This document shows, in pieces, positions 19,702 to 24,129 of a stretch of 29,254 bases of DNA (position 1 is the stretch's first letter; each line of letters opens with the position of its first letter). The notes under the pieces are model-generated. The model saw only the letters and a list, made by a program, of their open reading frames with translations, was not told the origin of the DNA and did not search any database. Source of the DNA: Candidatus Hydrogenedentota bacterium (GTDB lineage Bacteria; Hydrogenedentota; Hydrogenedentia; Hydrogenedentales; SLHB01); NCBI GenBank assembly GCA_029974275.1, contig JARKSN010000155.1, positions 1-29,254 of the forward strand, given 5' to 3'. The translations under genes and the position numbers were made by a program.

Positions 19702-21111
19702 ATGAGCAAAGGGTTTCGCACAGAGCACGATTTCCTGGGCGACATGGCCGTGCCGGAAGATGCACTGTACGGCATTCACACCGTGCGGGCGCAGGAAAAC
19801 TTCGGCGTGGCGGGACGGCCCGTGCCGCCGGCGTTGGTGCGCGCGTACGGCATGGTGAAACTAGCGTGCGCGGTGACGAACCAAACGCTCGGCGCGTGGA
19901 GCGACGACAAGGAAAAAGCCGCCGCCATCAACCGCGCGTGCCGCGAAATGGCCGACGGATTGTTGACGGATCACGTGGTCGTCGATTGGCTCCAAGGCGG
20001 CGCAGGCACGAGCACCAATCTGAACGTCAACGAGGTCATCGCCAACCGCGCGCAAGAAATCCTCGGGCTGCCGCACGGCTCCTACGCGCGCGTGTCGGCC
20101 ATCAACGACATCAACCGGCACCAATCCACCAACGACACGTTTCCCACCGCGCTGCGCCTCGCGGCCATCTGGCTCATCAAGGAACTCGAACAGCAACTCG
20201 TGCTGTTGCAAGAAGCGTTTCAAGCCAAGGAAAAAGAATTCGCGCACGTCGTCAAGGTAGGACGCACCCAATTGCAGGATGCCGTTTTGACAACCCTGGG
20301 CCGCGAAATGGGCGCGTATGCCGAAGCGATCAACCGCGACCGCTGGCGCGTGTACAAATGCGAAGAACGCCTGCGCGTCGTCAACCTCGGCGGCACCGCC
20401 ATCGGAACCGGACTCGCCGCGCCGAGGCAATACATCTTCCAAGTCGTCGACACCTTGCGCGGCCTCACCGGCATCGGCTTCGCGCGCGCCGAAAACCTCG
20501 TCGACGCAACCCAAAACGCCGACGTGTTCGTCGAAGTCAGCGGCATCTTGAAAGCCTGCGCCGTGTCGTTGCTAAAAATCTCGACCGACCTGCGGCTGAT
20601 GTCATCGGGACCCGAATCCGGCCTCGGCGAGATACGCTTGCCCGAACGACAGGCGGGTTCGTCGATCATGCCCGGCAAGGTCAACCCCGTGATCCCCGAA
20701 ACCGTCAGTCAGGCGGCCATGCTCGTGATGGGCCACGACGCCGTGATCGCACAGGCCTGCGCGTCGGGCAATCTCGAACTCAACGCGTTCCTGCCGCTCG
20801 TGGCCGGGTGCTTGTTGGAAAGCTGCGAATTCCTCACGCGCGCCTGCGATCGCATGCGGCGATTCTGCGTCGAAGACATCGAAGCCGACGAAGCGCGATG
20901 CCGCGCCCACGTCGAAGCCTCCACCGCCGTCGCCACGGCCCTCATGCCCGCGCTCGGCTACGACCGCGCCGCCATCGTCGCCAAACGCGCCGCCGAAACC
21001 CGCCGCACCGTCCGCGACATCGTCCTCCAAGACGGCCTCCTCGACGAGAAAACCTTCGACGAGCTCATCACCCCCGAAGCCGTATGCCGCCTCGGCATGC
21101 CCAACCCGTAG
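19702..21111 (+). CDS. aspA: Aspartate ammonia-lyase
   Basis: R.EHD.LG, YGIHT.RA.ENF, QGGAGTSTN.N.NEVIANRA, QSTNDTFPT, GRTQLQDA, LGGTAIGTG and the fumarate-lyase signature GSSIMPGKVNP. Confidence 0.9.
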   Translation: MSKGFRTEHDFLGDMAVPEDALYGIHTVRAQENFGVAGRPVPPALVRAYGMVKLACAVTNQTLGAWSDDKEKAAAINRACREMADGLLTDHVVVDWLQGGAGTSTNLNVNEVIANRAQEILGLPHGSYARVSAINDINRHQSTNDTFPTALRLAAIWLIKELEQQLVLLQEAFQAKEKEFAHVVKVGRTQLQDAVLTTLGREMGAYAEAINRDRWRVYKCEERLRVVNLGGTAIGTGLAAPRQYIFQVVDTLRGLTGIGFARAENLVDATQNADVFVEVSGILKACAVSLLKISTDLRLMSSGPESGLGEIRLPERQAGSSIMPGKVNPVIPETVSQAAMLVMGHDAVIAQACASGNLELNAFLPLVAGCLLESCEFLTRACDRMRRFCVEDIEADEARCRAHVEASTAVATALMPALGYDRAAIVAKRAAETRRTVRDIVLQDGLLDEKTFDELITPEAVCRLGMPNP

Positions 21112-21119
21112 GAGAAGCC

Positions 21120-21587
21120 ATGGTCTCGCACAGCCGTCCCGTTCAGACCGTTTTGCAAATGCAGCTTGTTGCCGTCGGCATTGCTCTTGCCCCAATCACC
21201 TACCTGGTTGTCCTGGTCCTCCTTCGCGTGACCGGGACGCTTCCCGCAACCGGTTTTGTCCAACTGCCCGAGGCGACCCAGACGATTCTGAAAGTCGCAT
21301 TGGGCGCCATGGCGCTGCTCACGGCCATCGCGACGCTGCGCATACGCAAACGACTCGAAGCCGCGTTCCTCGCAAAAGCGAACACCATCGCCAGCCGCAC
21401 CCGCATCGTCATCATCACCATGGCCATCTGCGACGCCGCCGCCGTGCTCGGCCTCGTCGTCGGCCTACTCACCGGCGACCTCATCATCGCAGCCGTCGTC
21501 ATGGCCATCGCCATGTCCGCCGCCATCTTTCATTTCCCCACCCGCGCCTGGATTGAACAGGCGGAGGATTTGGCGGCAAAGCAGTAG
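21120..21587 (+). CDS. Hypothetical integral membrane protein (about 4 TM segments)
   Basis: ATG 21120 with AGGAG RBS overlapping the aspA stop; four hydrophobic stretches; ends HFPTR..W; host-like codon usage. Confidence 0.75.
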   Translation: MVSHSRPVQTVLQMQLVAVGIALAPITYLVVLVLLRVTGTLPATGFVQLPEATQTILKVALGAMALLTAIATLRIRKRLEAAFLAKANTIASRTRIVIITMAICDAAAVLGLVVGLLTGDLIIAAVVMAIAMSAAIFHFPTRAWIEQAEDLAAKQ

Positions 21588-21681
21588 AGGGGTCGCTGTG
21601 AAAGTGATAGCGACTACACGCCTGTTTATAGATTGTTCAGTTTGAAGTTCTTGCTCGCGCAATTTCGGGAGGGATATTACG

Positions 21682-22248
21682 ATGGGACGAATCACAGTGA
21701 TCCTCTTTCTGATAGGTCTGATCCTAGAATTCGCCGCATTTCTAGGTGGTCAGACTGCGAATATCCCAATTGTGCTGAAATTGGTCTCGCCGGAATGTGC
21801 ACGTGCCCAATTCGGTATCCAATTGCTTGTCAACAAGAAGATACTTCAGCCAGAAGACCCCGGTTTTTCTGCGGTTTCCAAGATACTTATACAAGCACTA
21901 CAGCCCGGCTATTCTTCGAACAATGGTGGCAAAATATCGGTTGAGAAACTGACATGCGGAGGTCCCGGTATCGGTTTTGGTCCTCAGAGAGCAGGTGAAG
22001 TTCTTCTCGGATCTGTTGTCCTGTCCAACGGTCAGACTATTCCATATGATTTCATGTCGCTTAGACGCCGGGTGGACACGTTACAGAATATCAGTCTTTT
22101 CGCCTATTCACTCGTAGTTTTTCTGGTAGGTGTTATGACCCAATGTTTTGGCTTTTTTGTGGAACACCAGAAAAACAAACGTGCAGGAAAAGCATCAAAA
22201 TTCCATATTGAACAAACAGATACAACAGGTTCTGGGTATAGTTCTTGA
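21682..22248 (+). CDS. Hypothetical membrane protein with N- and C-terminal TM segments, AT-richer than its neighbours
   Basis: GGAGG RBS, 188 aa ORF, hydrophobic ends, many A/T-ending codons unlike flanking genes. Confidence 0.7.
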   Translation: MGRITVILFLIGLILEFAAFLGGQTANIPIVLKLVSPECARAQFGIQLLVNKKILQPEDPGFSAVSKILIQALQPGYSSNNGGKISVEKLTCGGPGIGFGPQRAGEVLLGSVVLSNGQTIPYDFMSLRRRVDTLQNISLFAYSLVVFLVGVMTQCFGFFVEHQKNKRAGKASKFHIEQTDTTGSGYSS

Positions 22249-22375
22249 GTTCTCCTATGCTTTTCAGTCGTCTTTTGTGACGCCGCGTGAAATTTTTCAA
22301 GATCAGAGATAATATGGAATAAGAAGAACTCCCGGCACGTAGAGCAGGTGATAAGGGAGGGAGTCGCGTTTCTTG

Positions 22376-22586: not shown

Positions 22587-22670
22587 GTAGGTCCCGTTTG
22601 TAACGGGACCTCTTGTGAATGCGGCGAGTTGTGTGGAAGCGAAGATGGTCCGATTACAAATCGGACCTAC
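22587..22670. repeat. Inverted GTAG-REP doublet (family B)
   Basis: GTAGGTCCCGTTTGTAACGGGACC at 22587-22610 and the revcomp of GTAGGTCCGATTTGTAATCGGACC at 22647-22670; each forms a perfect 9 bp hairpin. Confidence 0.85.
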
Positions 22671-22723
22671 CGAAGACGTTTGCTTGGCGACGACGAGCTA
22701 TAGGGATGAGGCGTGAGAAGAAA

Positions 22724-22749
22724 CGCCCGGCACAGAGACCGGGCGCTAC
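22724..22749 (-). repeat. Solo GTAG-REP (family A)
   Basis: Revcomp GTAGCGCCCGGTCTCTGTGCCGGGCG, identical to 10118-10143. Confidence 0.88.
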
Positions 22750-22830
22750 GGGATAAAATGCAAGGACGCTTTCACCGTAGAGACATTTGCTTCAAGAGAG
22801 TTGCTGGACAGAGCTAGAGGTTTTGCTGAT

Positions 22831-24129
22831 ATGACCCAATCCACTCCAAAATCGTTTCGGTTGCATATTGGCCTGTTTGGTCGGCGGAACGTGGGCAAGT
22901 CGAGTTTGCTGAATGCGATCACGCGGCAGCAGGTGTCGATTGTGTCGGAGTTCGCGGGAACGACGACGGACCCGGTCGAGAAGCCGATGGAGCTGTTGCC
23001 GTTGGGGCCGGTGTTGTTTATCGACACGGCGGGCATTGACGACGTCGGCGCGCTCGGGGAGTTGCGGATTCAGAAGACGCGGCAGGTGTTCGAGCGGACG
23101 GACCTCGGGGTATTGGTCGCGGAGGCGGGCGCGTGGGGCGAGTTTGAGGAGCGTATCCTCGAAGAACTGGAGTCGCGCGATATCCCGATCATTGTGGTGT
23201 TCAACAAGATCGACGCGGCGCAGCCGGATGCGGCGTTGGCGGAACGTTTTGAGTCGGAGTTGACGCCGGTCGTGAAAACGGCGGCGAACGAGGGGCGCGG
23301 CATCCTCGATTTCCGGCAGGCGCTGCTCGATAGCGCGCCGGAGAGTTTCATCAACAATCCAACGATCCTTGCGGACTTGGTGCCGCCGGGCGAGGTGGCG
23401 GTGTTGGTCGTGCCGATCGACAAGGAAGCGCCGAAGGGGCGGCTCATCATGCCGCAGGCGCAATCGATCCGCGAACTGCTCGACAACGATTCTTATTGCA
23501 TGGTCGTGAAGGAACGCGAACTGCGTAGTGCGCTCGATGCGCTCAAACGTCCGCCGAAGTTGGTGGTGACAGACTCGCAGGCGTTTTTGAAAGTTGCCGC
23601 GGACACGCCGCCGGACGTGCCGCTGACGAGTTTCTCGATCCTCTTCGCGCGGTTTCGCGGTGACCTCGTGACGCAGGTGCTCGGCACGACCGCCATCGAC
23701 AAACTGAAAACCGGCGACCGCATCCTCGTCGCGGAGGCGTGCAGCCATCACCCCATCGCGGAGGACATTGGGCGCGTGAAAATCCCGCGTTGGTTGCAGC
23801 AGTACGTCGGCGGCAAACTCGACTTCACGCATGTGCAGGGCCACGATTTCCCCGAAGACCTCACGCCGTACAAGCTCATCATTCATTGCGGCGCGTGCAC
23901 GGCGAACCGACGCGAGATGCTCAGCCGGATCATGCGCGCGCGACAGGCCGGCATCCCGATCACCAACTACGGCCTCACGATCTCGTACAGTCTCGGCATC
24001 TTCGAGCGCGCCCTCGGGCCATTCCCCGCGGCACTCGAAGCCTACCGAGAAGCGAAAAACGCTGGCCAGCGCACAAACGCATCGCCTGCGGATTGCGACG
24101 CCCCATCGGGCTTGCTGGACGAGCTATAG
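22831..24129 (+). CDS. hydF: [FeFe]-hydrogenase H-cluster maturation GTPase HydF
   Basis: GRRNVGKSS, GTTTDPV, DTAG, NKID, APKGRLI.PQ, VTDSQAF, LTSFSIL.AR, EACSHH...HCGAC, ITNYG; ATG 22831. Confidence 0.97.
   Translation: MTQSTPKSFRLHIGLFGRRNVGKSSLLNAITRQQVSIVSEFAGTTTDPVEKPMELLPLGPVLFIDTAGIDDVGALGELRIQKTRQVFERTDLGVLVAEAGAWGEFEERILEELESRDIPIIVVFNKIDAAQPDAALAERFESELTPVVKTAANEGRGILDFRQALLDSAPESFINNPTILADLVPPGEVAVLVVPIDKEAPKGRLIMPQAQSIRELLDNDSYCMVVKERELRSALDALKRPPKLVVTDSQAFLKVAADTPPDVPLTSFSILFARFRGDLVTQVLGTTAIDKLKTGDRILVAEACSHHPIAEDIGRVKIPRWLQQYVGGKLDFTHVQGHDFPEDLTPYKLIIHCGACTANRREMLSRIMRARQAGIPITNYGLTISYSLGIFERALGPFPAALEAYREAKNAGQRTNASPADCDAPSGLLDEL

What the first reader, a model, noticed from the sequence alone, without database searches (positions are those of the whole stretch)
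20860..23460. Sharp C/A to G/T synonymous-codon switch centred on the insertion hotspot
Seen by manual count in same-strand genes of one locus: the 40 aspA codons at 20941-21060 end in C33 A4 G3 T0, whereas the 40 hydF codons at 22921-23040 end in G29 C7 T3 A1. By 23941-24000 hydF has reverted (C14 of 20). By eye aspA and hydE also start G-rich and end C-rich, and the + strand is strongly C/A-rich approaching the REP at 29147. This resembles an origin-type skew inversion at kilobase scale that decays with distance from the repeat cluster. Inference: repeated strand-asymmetric processing of the flanks (ssDNA exposure or local DNA synthesis during cargo exchange), or selection for unstructured single-stranded homology arms. 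Caveat: other multi-kb skew domains in the window (for example 11.4-15.7 kb C/A-rich, and pabB G/T-rich to the left of MITE copy 1) have no matching hotspot.
Basis: partly seen in the sequence, partly recalled or inferred. Interest (0 to 1): 0.75.

Follow-up and report, generated by a model that had tools for sequence, protein, structure and literature searches.

The report
Local strand-skew jump at cassette slot
Silent codon positions really do flip from C/A-rich to G/T-rich across a strain-variable insertion slot between two housekeeping operons of an uncultured wastewater bacterium, but this is the sharpest case of a genome-wide saw-tooth strand bias whose link to cargo exchange is not shown.

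Summary
The flip is real and is not an assembly artefact: contigs from three other studies bridge the point inside hydF where the bias drops.

The bias has the keto/amino form and affects all synonymous classes. A conspecific strain shares it while carrying a different cassette in the same slot. No orthologous locus from another genus shows the same G-rich-to-C-rich flip, with or without an insert (one, L102, has a large contrast of another form).

The memb|hydF boundary has the strongest origin-like two-sided skew of 2,934 gene boundaries. The hydF-hydE-rex block has the steepest decline of 533 blocks. The same saw-tooth runs genome-wide: gradual decline, then upward jumps at block boundaries. 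It sits on patchy DNA-strand skew domains.

Heptamer arrays show no association with it, and REPs only a weak one on the gene 3' side.

My best reading is a local, persistent, mutation-type strand asymmetry. The mechanism is inferred, not shown. The closest thing in print is GRINS, but this segment fails its repeat criterion.

The scan has noted similar local skew centres on other DNA.

The parts
19702..21111 (+). aspA-type lyase gene. Its fourfold sites drift from balanced to nearly pure C along the gene.
   Evidence: Pfam gives Lyase_1 (8e-80) plus FumaraseC_C. S4 is +0.01 over codons 1-156 and -0.51 over codons 157-469. Two-fold NNY sites are T:C 6:45. The letter string is shown.
21120..21587 (+). 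Small hydrophobic ORF ('memb'), C/A-rich. It is the last gene of the upstream co-directional block.
   Evidence: No Pfam family passes threshold. S4 is -0.49. A 30%-identical homologue lies upstream of hydF in the closest relative, L002. The conspecific strain has it at 94% amino-acid identity.
21570..22830 (.). Strain-variable cassette slot, 48% GC. It holds a 188-aa orphan ORF (21682-22248, +), a heptamer array (22546-22569) and one REP (22721-22749).
   Evidence: Contig record 17 of run X4 and locus L021 carry about 812-815 other bases here, with flanks 97.6% and 96.6% identical. Composition is, the repeats, and the lack of any protein family.
22831..23682 (+). hydF codons 1-284 (GTPase and dimerisation domains): the G/T-rich segment.
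   Evidence: S4 is +0.51. NCG:NCC codons are 65:3, NNR sites G:A 45:13, NNY sites T:C 21:27. There is no second copy in the genome. Fourfold divergence from the conspecific strain is 17.4%.
23683..24129 (+). hydF codons 285-432 (cluster-binding/tetramerisation domain), mildly C-rich.
   Evidence: S4 is -0.21. The best step position is 23682. Contigs of runs X2, X4 and X5 bridge it.
24253..25997 (+). hydE and rex. The same block continues to decline to nearly pure C.
   Evidence: Pfam gives Radical_SAM, and CoA_binding plus Put_DNA-bind_N. S4 is -0.24 and -0.55. The block runs from first 850 bp +0.50 to last 850 bp -0.54, slope z -9.4, rank 1 of 533.
26101..29086 (-). Convergent three-gene block of unknown function. 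It shows the same 5'-G-rich to 3'-balanced decline.
   Evidence: Coding S4 is +0.78, +0.54 and +0.14. First 850 bp +0.70, last 850 bp +0.07, z -5.8, rank 3 of 533. No Pfam family passes threshold.
19647..19678 (+). Second heptamer array ([GA]CAGAG three times, inside a palindromic element), just upstream of aspA.
   Evidence: Away-strand skew here is +0.10 and -0.23, so there is no two-sided jump.
29143..29173 (+). REP copy at the contig end, beside the most C/A-rich stretch.
   Evidence: Of 102 family copies, 36 lie within 300 bp of a contig end.
10064..10303 (+). MITE copy 2 (copy 1 is at 3666-3907), about 0.5 kb from the +0.25 to -0.25 skew changepoint at about 10761.

Best explanation
**What it is.** The flip is real. 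It is the steepest local case of a mutation-type strand asymmetry: G+T on one strand, C+A on the other. In this Hydrogenedentota lineage the asymmetry forms a saw-tooth. Silent sites drift from G/T-rich to C/A-rich along each block of co-directional genes, then jump back up at the block boundary. This saw-tooth sits on patchy skew domains of 2 to 33 kb that belong to the DNA strand, not to gene direction.

**Why it peaks here.** The memb|hydF boundary ends one block (up to aspA-memb) and starts the next (hydF-hydE-rex), so the largest contrast falls across it. It also happens to be a cassette slot.

**What is shown.**
- The composition pattern and its polarity.
- Its presence in a second strain with a different cassette.
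- Its presence genome-wide.
- A local difference in which silent sites vary between the two strains.

**What is inferred.** On each side of the boundary, the strand running 5'->3' away from it is more often single-stranded or less well repaired, so it collects C->T and A->G changes. This is what polymerases moving outward would do, whether by transcription with R-loops from the hydF upstream region or by short-tract DNA synthesis. I do not think cargo exchange itself is the cause.
For: 1. **All synonymous classes shift together in the deamination direction.** hydF-N has NCG:NCC 65:3, NNR G:A 45:13 and NNY T:C 21:27. aspA codons 157-469 have S4 -0.51, NNY 6:45 and NNR 22:37.
2. **In this genome the skew belongs to the DNA strand.** Fourfold skew of neighbouring genes correlates at r=+0.56 on the same strand (n=1,785) and r=-0.42 on opposite strands (n=557). 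There are 35 segments with |S4|>=0.25, in which opposite-strand genes use mirrored codons. They include core genes such as holB, tmk, thyX and nrdJ. Their GC matches the rest of the genome, 0.608 against 0.607.
3. **The saw-tooth is genome-wide.** Of 533 blocks of at least 2.5 kb, 66% have a negative slope (Wilcoxon 2e-15). Slopes with z<-3 number 63, against 13 with z>3. Upward changepoints lie at gene ends in 18 of 29 cases; downward ones in 9 of 27.
4. **This locus is the extreme.** The boundary ranks 1 of 2,934. The block ranks 1 of 533, and its neighbour ranks 3.
5. **It is a stable local regime, not a decaying relic.** Strain L021 has a different cassette and 17.4% fourfold divergence in hydF-N, yet keeps N +0.44 and C -0.28.
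6. **Which silent sites differ between the strains changes locally.** In the C-rich flanks, C<->T differences occur at 3 of 391 C/T sites and G<->A at 17 of 205 G/A sites. In hydF-N the figures are 5 of 41 and 9 of 108. By my hand calculation from those counts, 5 of 14 against an expected share of 3.4% gives P of about 1e-4.
7. **It is not a chimera.** Records from three studies bridge 23682.
Against: - No transcript, R-loop or replication data were available, so the process that exposes the strand is pure inference.
- Simple transcription-linked asymmetry predicts a G/T-rich coding strand throughout. The mean coding S4 is -0.015, and the 3' parts here are strongly C-rich.
- At divergent promoter gaps, 5' ends are barely G-rich, +0.03 to +0.04.
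- Replication forks should not lose their polarity within 1-3 kb.
- A same-family relative, G010, shows almost no skew domains and only a weak slope (64% negative, P=0.064, n=39). No orthologous hydF locus from another genus reproduces the flip. A lineage-specific factor is therefore needed, and none was found: UDG genes are present as in the relatives.
- The polymorphism counts are small and unpolarised.
- The raised divergence in hydF could equally come from imported alleles.
- My gene calls come from a home-made caller. It was checked against Pfam only in this window.
Confidence: 0.45

Rival explanations
1. Repeated cassette exchange at the slot exposes or resynthesises the flanks in a strand-asymmetric way, writing G+T onto the strand that leaves the slot. 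The effect decays over about 1 kb.
For: - The slot is real, with exact shared boundaries in two strains.
- The skew is two-sided and nearly symmetric, 0.54 and 0.54, and decays with distance.
- It ranks 1 of 2,934 boundaries.
- Strain divergence is raised next to the slot: 6.7% against 2.4% on the right, and 11 differences in the last 170 bp on the left.
- REP-containing gaps score higher than other gaps, 0.097 (n=34) against 0.024 (n=959), P=0.014.
- Four of the eight top-scoring boundaries contain a REP.
- Earlier scan notes describe outward G+T polarity beside CRISPR arrays and other fixed points (unchecked here).
Against: - The REP effect is confined to sides where a gene's 3' end adjoins the gap. 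The 5' sides give 0.035 against 0.005, P=0.20.
- Skew changepoints are not nearer to REPs than random positions are.
- Heptamer arrays elsewhere sit at background.
- Orthologous loci with inserts at the same junction show no larger jump.
- The high-divergence tract ends at about 24011. The skew step is at about 23682.
- 5'->3' resection from a break in the slot would expose the opposite strand to the one that looks deaminated. This is reasoning from textbook end-resection polarity, not a test.
Confidence: 0.15
2. Mosaic gene. The first 850 bp of hydF, with some earlier cassette, was imported by homologous recombination from a lineage where the locus lies in a domain of opposite skew. The step at 23682 is an old crossover.
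For: - The G fraction forms a plateau then a step: 0.70-0.87, then 0.37-0.50.
- The step falls at a domain border with a conserved motif, between HydF_dimer (ends at residue 277) and HydF_tetramer (starts at residue 283).
- Flanks are evidently co-transferred at this slot.
- Orthologues in other genera range from S4 -0.43 to +0.27.
Against: - Amino-acid identity to relatives is even across the junction: 0.84 and 0.82 to the closest, and the 19 relatives show no break.
- Two alleles 17% apart at fourfold sites both keep the pattern.
- The differences between strains in hydF-N do not look like decay towards the flank regime.
- It does not explain the mirror-image gradient in aspA and memb, the continued decline through hydE and rex, or the same gradient in the neighbouring block.
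- A smooth decline fits as well as a step.
Confidence: 0.15
3. Selection on the RNA. C-rich, G-poor 3' ends act as loading sites for the Rho termination factor at operon ends. A G-rich, C-poor 5' part protects the new hydF transcript from premature termination.
For: - Rho is encoded in the genome.
- No intrinsic terminator stands out after memb.
- The 3' ends of terminal genes are C-rich genome-wide: last 75 codons -0.092, against -0.013 for internal genes. The effect is strongest at convergent gaps, 0.12-0.16, and before REPs.
- The C-rich arm folds about 17% more weakly as RNA than the one control did.
Against: - The sense strand downstream of stop codons is not C-rich: +0.04 to +0.056 for tandem neighbours (n=272) and about 0 for convergent ones (n=94).
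- Domains in which genes on both strands share one DNA-strand skew cannot come from selection on RNA.
- The bias spans kilobases, not the roughly 100 nt of a loading site (that size is from memory).
- Relatives with the same operon lack the pattern.
Confidence: 0.1
4. A chance extreme. Patchy replication-type skew, scrambled by rearrangements, happens to place a short G-rich remnant next to C-rich neighbours. Nothing is special about the site.
For: - The skew landscape is heavy-tailed and patchy.
- The next boundaries score 0.44, 0.43 and 0.40.
- The window holds two other large skew switches with no slot.
- Gene-level skew reversals are used in print as marks of past inversions (PMC6220195; search listing and abstract only).
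Against: - An inversion cannot place a boundary inside an intact gene.
- Only 2 short islands of opposite sign exist in 3.75 Mb.
- The locus ranks 1 by three differently built statistics.
- There is no replichore-scale skew at dnaA.
- There is no gene-strand bias in the skewed domains: 54% of coding bases lie on the G-rich strand.
- The genome-wide slopes have a consistent sign, P=2e-15.
Confidence: 0.15

Closest known systems
Replication-associated strand compositional asymmetry (leading strand G>C and T>A, with the sign switching at oriC). Textbook, from memory; reviewed in PMC10030826 (search listing and abstract only).
   Same: - Keto/amino form.
- Independent of gene direction elsewhere in this genome.
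- Minus-to-plus polarity at the centre.
- Strongest at silent sites.
   Different: - It decays within 1-3 kb, not over a replichore.
- It is not at dnaA, which lies on C302 with no skew jump there.
- Most of the genome has skew near zero.
- Skewed domains show no gene-strand bias.
[quoted passage not shown] 2021, PMC8256042). I read the abstract, the discovery and phylogenetic-distribution sections, and the Discussion.
   Same: - Abrupt stretches inside functional genes that are G+T-rich or C+A-rich, within 1 kb of each other on one strand.
- Strongest at third codon positions.
- Linked to recombination-prone DNA.
- Mechanism unknown.
- The paper also mentions single-copy regions of intense skew.
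   Different: - GRINS are defined by a second copy more than 80% identical. hydF-N has none.
- Mean |TA skew| in hydF-N is 0.065, below the 0.15 threshold.
- These are housekeeping genes of a Hydrogenedentota bacterium, not polyketide synthases or transposases.
- The skew here forms an ordered two-sided pattern around a slot and belongs to a genome-wide saw-tooth.
Skew 'N-domains' of the human genome: upward jumps at initiation zones and linear decline between them (PMC2764438, PMC3320577; search listing and abstracts only).
   Same: The saw-tooth shape: sharp upward jumps at non-genic boundaries and gradual decline between them. The sign of the slope does not depend on gene direction.
   Different: The scale is kilobases, not megabases. 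This is a bacterium, and no replication data exist for it.
Transcription-associated mutational asymmetry (deamination of the non-transcribed strand; promoter-proximal skew in mammals). From memory, no paper read here.
   Same: The G+T excess on the coding strand is greatest near the start of the hydF block and decays downstream.
   Different: The 3' parts are C/A-rich rather than neutral. Divergent promoters show almost no effect. Domains elsewhere in the genome ignore gene direction.

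Membership tests
Chromosomal replication origin (oriC-type skew switch) | Skew changes from minus to plus on the + strand at the site. | tested here: met
   Away-strand S4 is +0.54 on both sides within 850 bp. The boundary ranks 1 of 2,934.
Chromosomal replication origin (oriC-type skew switch) | The asymmetry persists over a replichore-scale distance. 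| tested here: not met
   It falls to +0.17 and -0.23 by 0.85-2.5 kb. The + strand turns negative again from 23682.
Chromosomal replication origin (oriC-type skew switch) | Linked to dnaA or an initiator gene. | tested here: not met
   The best Bac_DnaA match is on contig C302. There is no initiator domain among the window's ORFs. I did not search for DnaA boxes.
GRINS (PMC8256042 definition) | Length over 500 bp. | tested here: met
   The segment is 852 bp, 22831-23682.
GRINS (PMC8256042 definition) | Mean |GC skew| over 0.15 in 150-nt windows. | tested here: met
   Hand average of the 10 windows is 0.18 for hydF-N and 0.21 for the left arm. The step was 75 nt, not the paper's 30.
GRINS (PMC8256042 definition) | Mean |TA skew| over 0.15. 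| tested here: not met
   hydF-N averages 0.065 by hand. The left arm averages 0.17, but with mixed sign.
GRINS (PMC8256042 definition) | Duplicated: over 80% DNA identity to another region. | tested here: not met
   Only the self-match was found in the 4.38-Mb assembly. The assembly is a draft of 342 contigs.
Recombination mosaic (imported gene segment) | Similarity to relatives changes across the junction. | tested here: not met
   Identity of the N and C parts is 0.84 and 0.82 to the closest relative, and similar for all 19. No trees were built.
Recombination mosaic (imported gene segment) | A block of raised divergence between close strains that coincides with the compositional block. | tested here: inconclusive
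   A raised block exists (6.7% against 2.4%), but it ends at about 24011 (support 23891-24101). The skew step is at 23637-23691.
Rho-dependent terminator region (loading site) | C-rich, G-poor, weakly structured RNA at the end of the transcription unit. | tested here: inconclusive
   This is met locally: memb's last 300 nt have GC skew -0.15 to -0.22, the gap after rex -0.35, and the RNA fold is weaker. It is not met genome-wide downstream of stop codons.
Rho-dependent terminator region (loading site) | Termination depends on Rho. | not testable with these tools
   Only the presence of a rho gene could be shown.

The most novel reading that the evidence does not exclude
Strain-variable insertion slots act as small origin-like centres of one-strand mutagenesis. 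Something that repeatedly starts at the slot and moves outward leaves the departing strand exposed for about 1 kb. Candidates are short-tract DNA synthesis primed there, or strong outward transcription with R-loops. The result rewrites the silent sites of the neighbouring housekeeping genes.

Earlier scan notes describe outward G+T flanks beside CRISPR arrays, a phage terminase gap and archaeal gene clusters (not checked here). Together with those, this would be one undescribed process that marks recombination-active or integration-active points in prokaryotic genomes. It might also supply the skew that GRINS elements spread.
Probability: 0.15. Interest if true: 0.85.

Novelty: new variant of a known kind. 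Interest (0 to 1): 0.55.

Why it matters
If the bias is mutational and tied to fixed points, silent-site skew at kilobase scale becomes a readable record. It would show where DNA is habitually opened in organisms that cannot be grown. It could also explain how the intense skews seen in GRINS arise.

There are two practical cautions.
- Codon-usage gene finders can pick the wrong strand in such regions. My first model did this at hydG.
- Methods that use gene-level skew to infer inversions or gene transfer would misread this saw-tooth.

If instead it is only the tail of a patchy skew landscape, the finding is a descriptive curiosity of one draft genome.

Tried and rejected
1. **Assembly chimera: rejected.** 23682 is bridged by X2 record 16 (0 differences), X4 record 17 and X5 record 28.
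2. **A universal 5'-G to 3'-C gradient in every gene: rejected as a sufficient cause.** The average gene profile runs only from +0.08 to -0.085. Boundaries inside operons show about 0.
3. **Codon-family or amino-acid artefact: rejected.** The shift appears in six of eight fourfold families and in both two-fold classes. It is absent from orthologues. One row (aspA 20172-21108) was out of frame; I redid it.
4. **Foreign or contaminant origin of the skewed DNA: no support.** GC and fourfold-site GC are equal to the rest of the genome.
5. **Mobile-element origin: true only for C163 1-8 kb** (phage capsid, portal and tail genes). It does not hold for C197, C193 or this window.
6. **Loss of uracil-DNA glycosylase as the lineage factor: rejected.** 25 of 25 genomes, G000 included, have UDG-family matches.
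7. **Promoter and terminator scan of 20900-23100:** 0 promoter-like sites and 4 terminator-like sites, against 2.3 expected. Uninformative.
8. **PADLOC on the cargo ORFs:** no hits.
9. **Skew strength against distance from contig ends:** no clear trend.
10. **Literature.** The searches returned nothing on kilobase-scale saw-tooth skew in bacteria. This is a limited set of word searches, not proof of absence. The GRINS lead came from an earlier scan note.
11. **Not done.**
    - The folding comparison rests on a single control segment.

Full report
**Setting**

The window is a whole 29,254-bp contig (C156) of a 4.38-Mb draft genome in 342 contigs, 60.5% GC. Record titles of the nearest hydF loci place it in Candidatus Hydrogenedentota, as do earlier scan notes. 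The public runs that hold this DNA are wastewater, digester and activated-sludge metagenomes.

Pfam fixes this gene map:

| Coordinates | Strand | Gene |
|---|---|---|
| 438-1742 | - | ugd |
| 1922-3664 | + | pabB |
| 4073-5086 | - | radical-SAM/SPASM |
| 5104-8565 | - | YhdP-like |
| 8639-9196 | - | ruvC |
| 9193-10104 | - | yebC |
| 10432-11130 | + | ppa |
| 11344-11976 | + | clpP |
| 12062-13003 | + | dprA |
| 13014-13580 | - | lepB |
| 13633-14718 | - | TPR protein |
| 14679-15650 | - | GNAT |
| 15854-17194 | + | histidine kinase |
| 17191-18588 | + | hydG |
| 19702-21111 | + | aspA |
| 21120-21587 | + | small hydrophobic ORF ('memb') |
| 21682-22248 | + | low-GC orphan ORF |
| 22831-24129 | + | hydF |
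| 24253-25332 | + | hydE |
| 25329-25997 | + | rex |
| 26101-29086 | - | three unknown ORFs |

The three manual counts are reproduced to the letter. S4 below means (G-C)/(G+C) at fourfold-degenerate sites.

- aspA goes from S4 +0.01 (codons 1-156) to -0.51 (codons 157-469). memb is -0.49. hydF codons 1-284 are +0.51. hydF codons 285-410 are -0.21. rex is -0.55.
- The string of fourfold letters shows runs of almost pure C up to the end of memb and almost pure G from the start of hydF.
- The shift is not a quirk of one codon family. In hydF-N, NCG:NCC is 65:3, GTG:GTC 18:6 and CGG:CGC 10:5. Only Gly (5:8) and Leu (8:12) do not follow.
- The two-fold classes move the same way. NNR sites are G:A 45:13 and NNY sites T:C 21:27 in hydF-N. 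aspA codons 157-469 have 22:37 and 6:45.
- One strand is therefore G+T-rich and the other C+A-rich. This is the form expected from C->T and A->G change on one strand.

**Is it more than chance?**

I called genes genome-wide with a model that cannot see G versus C at third positions. A plain codon model had picked the wrong strand at hydG.

- Among 1,832 genes, the hydF first-half versus second-half contrast ranks 4. aspA ranks 57.
- I scored every boundary between neighbouring genes by the skew of the strand running away from it, within 850 bp on both sides. memb|hydF scores 0.52 and ranks 1 of 2,934 (mean 0.009, sd 0.107). The next boundaries score 0.44, 0.43 and 0.40.
- The rank is 2, 1, 1, 1 and 7 for flanks of 400, 600, 850, 1200 and 1800 bp.
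- Both sides contribute equally, +0.54 each, falling to +0.17 on the left and -0.23 on the right by 0.85-2.5 kb.
- The drop inside hydF has its best step at 23682. However, a smooth decline across hydF-hydE-rex fits 480 sites at least as well: BIC 595.2 against 603.2. 'Sharp' therefore applies to the upward jump, not securely to the fall.

**Not an artefact**

- Contigs of other runs cross 23682: X2 record 16 (23597-25000, no differences), X4 record 17 (22831-23938, 75 differences) and X5 record 28 (22960-23813, 40 differences). They come from three studies.
- X4 record 17 also jumps from 21569 to 22831 with 815 other letters in between.
- The metagenome locus L021 shows the same. It matches window 18387-21569 at 97.6% and 22828-28129 at 96.6%, with 812 bp of different cargo between. 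That cargo holds a PIN-domain ORF (PF01850, E 7.6e-7) and a 51-aa ORF.
- The 'insertion hotspot' is therefore a real cassette slot with fixed borders.
- L021 keeps the whole skew pattern: hydF N +0.44 and C -0.28, aspA halves -0.17 and -0.52, memb -0.22 and -0.53, rex -0.54.

**Relatives**

- hydF orthologues were found in 20 of 40 relatives, all of other genera, at 72-83% amino-acid identity.
- In 10 of 19 loci, aspA ends within 140 bp of hydF. The closest relative has a memb homologue there. The 1.7 kb between aspA and hydF in this genome is therefore an addition.
- None of the 19 shows a comparable contrast. The largest N-minus-C difference is +0.45, against +0.72 here. Amino-acid identity is even across the junction.
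- In the larger set of 178 loci with a near-full hydF match, some genomes appear twice. The results:
  - 80 loci with aspA adjacent have a mean jump of -0.03 (sd 0.16, maximum 0.40).
  - 23 loci with a gap of at least 150 bp have a mean of +0.07 (P=0.13). This group includes L021.
  - An N-minus-C difference of at least 0.6 occurs in 2 of 158: L021, and L102 (-0.12 and -0.92).
- The pattern belongs to this species-level lineage. It is not a general result of having an insert at this junction.

**The genome-wide background**

1. *Skew belongs to the DNA strand.* Neighbouring genes on the same strand correlate at r=+0.56 (n=1,785). Neighbours on opposite strands correlate at r=-0.42 (n=557).
   - Segmenting 114 contigs (3.75 Mb) gives 170 segments. 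Most lie near zero, and 35 have |S4|>=0.25, for a total of 306 kb.
   - Within these, genes on the two strands use mirrored codons, and the A/T skew at fourfold sites reaches 0.9.
   - One such segment (C163) holds phage structural genes. C197 and C193 hold core genes: pilus/T2SS, holB, tmk, tyrA, metX, cysK, thyX, nrdJ.
   - GC is the same as elsewhere. Only 54% of coding bases lie on the G-rich strand. There is no skew jump at dnaA.
   - A same-family relative, sampled at 20 regions of 20 kb, has |S4| of at most 0.23 and no such neighbour correlations.
2. *A saw-tooth.* Of 533 co-directional gene blocks of at least 2.5 kb, 66% have a negative 5'->3' slope (Wilcoxon 2e-15). Slopes with z<-3 number 63, against 13 with z>3.
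   - A negative slope in coding orientation is also a negative slope on the + strand, whichever way the gene runs. This is therefore a DNA-level saw-tooth: gradual decline, then upward jumps.
   - Consistent with that, upward changepoints sit within 150 bp of a gene end in 18 of 29 cases, and downward ones in 9 of 27. My hand chi-square is about 4.6.
   - hydF-hydE-rex is the steepest block (+0.50 to -0.54, z -9.4). The convergent block 26101-29086 ranks third (+0.70 to +0.07).
   - By boundary class, the effect is about 0 inside operons. It is 0.09 on both sides of tandem gaps of at least 400 bp. It is 0.12-0.16 at the 3' ends of convergent genes. It is only 0.03-0.04 at divergent 5' ends.

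- The REP family has 102 copies (up to 5 mismatches). Of these, 36 lie within 300 bp of a contig end, so REPs break the assembly.
- Skew changepoints are not closer to REPs than random positions are: 4 of 56 within 1 kb against 2.5 expected, P=0.25; 10 of 56 within 3 kb against 7.3 expected, P=0.13.
- The 30 heptamer arrays are all intergenic. Outside this contig, the skew beside them is at background.
- Gaps that contain a REP do score higher: 0.097 (n=34) against 0.024 (n=959), P=0.014. Without C156 the figures are 0.089 and P=0.021.
- That effect lies on the sides where a gene's 3' end adjoins the gap: 0.168 (n=28) against 0.053 (n=757), P=0.044, or P=0.087 without C156. It is not on the 5' sides: 0.035 against 0.005, P=0.20.
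- Genes beside large gaps or contig ends show no larger 5'->3' shift on average, 0.044 against 0.034, P=0.43.
- The association is therefore weak and one-sided. It is not the symmetric effect the model needs.

**Evidence on process**

*Divergence between the window and L021*
- Divergence is 6.7% from 22831 to about 24011 and 2.4% beyond.
- Fourfold divergence is 17.4% in hydF-N, 9.0% in hydF-C and 3.5-5.6% elsewhere.
- Either flanks are carried along with cassettes, or the local rate is higher. The end of this tract does not match the skew step.

*Which silent sites differ between the strains*
- In the C-rich flanks, C<->T differences occur at 3 of 391 C/T fourfold sites and G<->A at 17 of 205 G/A sites.
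- In hydF-N the figures are 5 of 41 and 9 of 108.
- If hydF-N were a relic decaying under the flank regime, about 3% of its transitions should be C<->T. I observe 5 of 14, which by hand calculation gives P of about 1e-4.
- This points to a regime that differs locally and persists. The counts are small and unpolarised.

*Selection on RNA*
- It is not favoured as a general cause. The sense strand just downstream of stop codons is not C-rich (+0.04 to +0.056, n=272; about 0, n=94).
- Selection on RNA also cannot produce strand-locked domains.

*Folding*

| 600-nt segment | RNA, kcal/mol | DNA, kcal/mol |
|---|---|---|
| C-rich arm | -212.5 | -104.3 |
| G-rich arm | -259.6 | -120.3 |
| One control | -256.5 | -139.5 |

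The arms' z-scores against their own shuffles lie between -1.5 and +0.9; the control's are -1.55 (RNA) and -1.92 (DNA). Any weaker folding simply follows from composition.

*Uracil repair*
- G000 has UDG genes, as do all 24 relatives searched.

**Reading**

The simplest account that covers all of this is a mutation-type strand asymmetry that is local, long-lived and specific to this lineage. Its polarity resets at boundaries between gene blocks, and the largest reset lies at this slot.

Which process exposes the strand is inference. The polarity fits polymerases moving outward from the boundary, by transcription with R-loops or by short-tract synthesis. It is opposite to what 5'->3' resection of a break in the slot would expose (textbook polarity, not tested here).

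The rivals each keep some weight and are scored separately: cargo-exchange processing, an imported hydF arm, Rho-related selection, and a chance extreme of scrambled replication skew.

**Comparison with what is known**

- It works like origin-type skew, but it is not an origin. It decays within 1-3 kb and is not at dnaA.
- The nearest published phenomenon is GRINS (PMC8256042; sections read). Those are abrupt stretches of G+T or C+A at third positions inside working genes, tied to gene conversion, with unknown mechanism.
- This segment meets the GRINS length threshold and the GC-skew threshold (0.18). It fails the TA-skew threshold (0.065) and the defining duplication, since only a self-match was found.
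- The paper itself mentions single-copy skewed regions.
- Earlier notes of this scan report similar local centres in other genomes: beside archaeal CRISPR arrays, in an Asgard aIF5B gene, in phages and in a Chloroflexi block. I did not check them.

**Verdict**

The feature is real and statistically extreme. It is a new variant of a known but unexplained kind.

Noticed in passing
window 3666-3907 and 10064-10303: Two direct copies (95-98% identical over the blocks reported) of a roughly 240-bp MITE-like element, each holding an inverted pair of REP hairpins. They bracket a 6.2-kb block of minus-strand genes (radical-SAM/SPASM, YhdP-like, ruvC, yebC). The +0.25 to -0.25 skew changepoint lies about 0.5 kb to the right of copy 2.
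   Followed up: partly
genome-wide (G000): The REP family GTAGCGCCCGG...CCGGGCG has 102 copies in 44 contigs. Of these, 36 lie within 300 bp of a contig end, so this repeat is a main cause of assembly breaks.
   Followed up: partly
G000 C197 (whole 26-kb contig), C193 35-46 kb, C295 33-60 kb, C240 25-58 kb: Core-gene regions carry mitochondrion-like strand asymmetry at silent sites (S4 0.3-0.7; A/T skew at fourfold sites up to 0.9). The rest of the genome, including the dnaA region, has almost none. A same-family relative lacks such domains. Unexplained.
   Followed up: partly
G000 C163 1-8 kb (L201): A prophage-like run of one-strand genes (Mu-type portal, phage capsid, SPP1 Dit tail protein) has the strongest skew in the genome, coding S4 0.6-0.85.
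   Followed up: no
L021 3264-3925: In the conspecific strain the slot holds a PIN-domain ORF and a 51-aa ORF that overlaps its stop codon, probably a toxin-antitoxin pair. The window instead holds a 188-aa low-GC orphan with hydrophobic ends.
   Followed up: partly
window 28562-29086 (-): A 174-aa ORF with no known family has fourfold sites G74:C9 (S4 +0.78). It is the most skewed gene of the window and sits next to the terminal REP.
   Followed up: no
L102 (Hydrogenedentes MAG contig, hydF at 31-1257): The C-terminal third of this hydF orthologue has S4 -0.92, against -0.12 in its N part. Strong intragenic skew contrasts therefore occur elsewhere in the phylum, here in a different form from this window's flip.
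   Followed up: no
window 17191-19050: A codon-usage gene model preferred a 481-aa antisense ORF (17605-19050, -) over the true hydG (17191-18588, +). Local skew can mislead strand choice in gene finders.
   Followed up: yes
window 19590-19700 and 22480-22580: The 'heptamer arrays' are the right halves of roughly 100-bp palindromic elements: TCTGYG repeats, then a CTCTGCGTT/AACGCAGAG hairpin, then RCAGAG repeats. There are 30 such arrays in the genome, all intergenic.
   Followed up: partly
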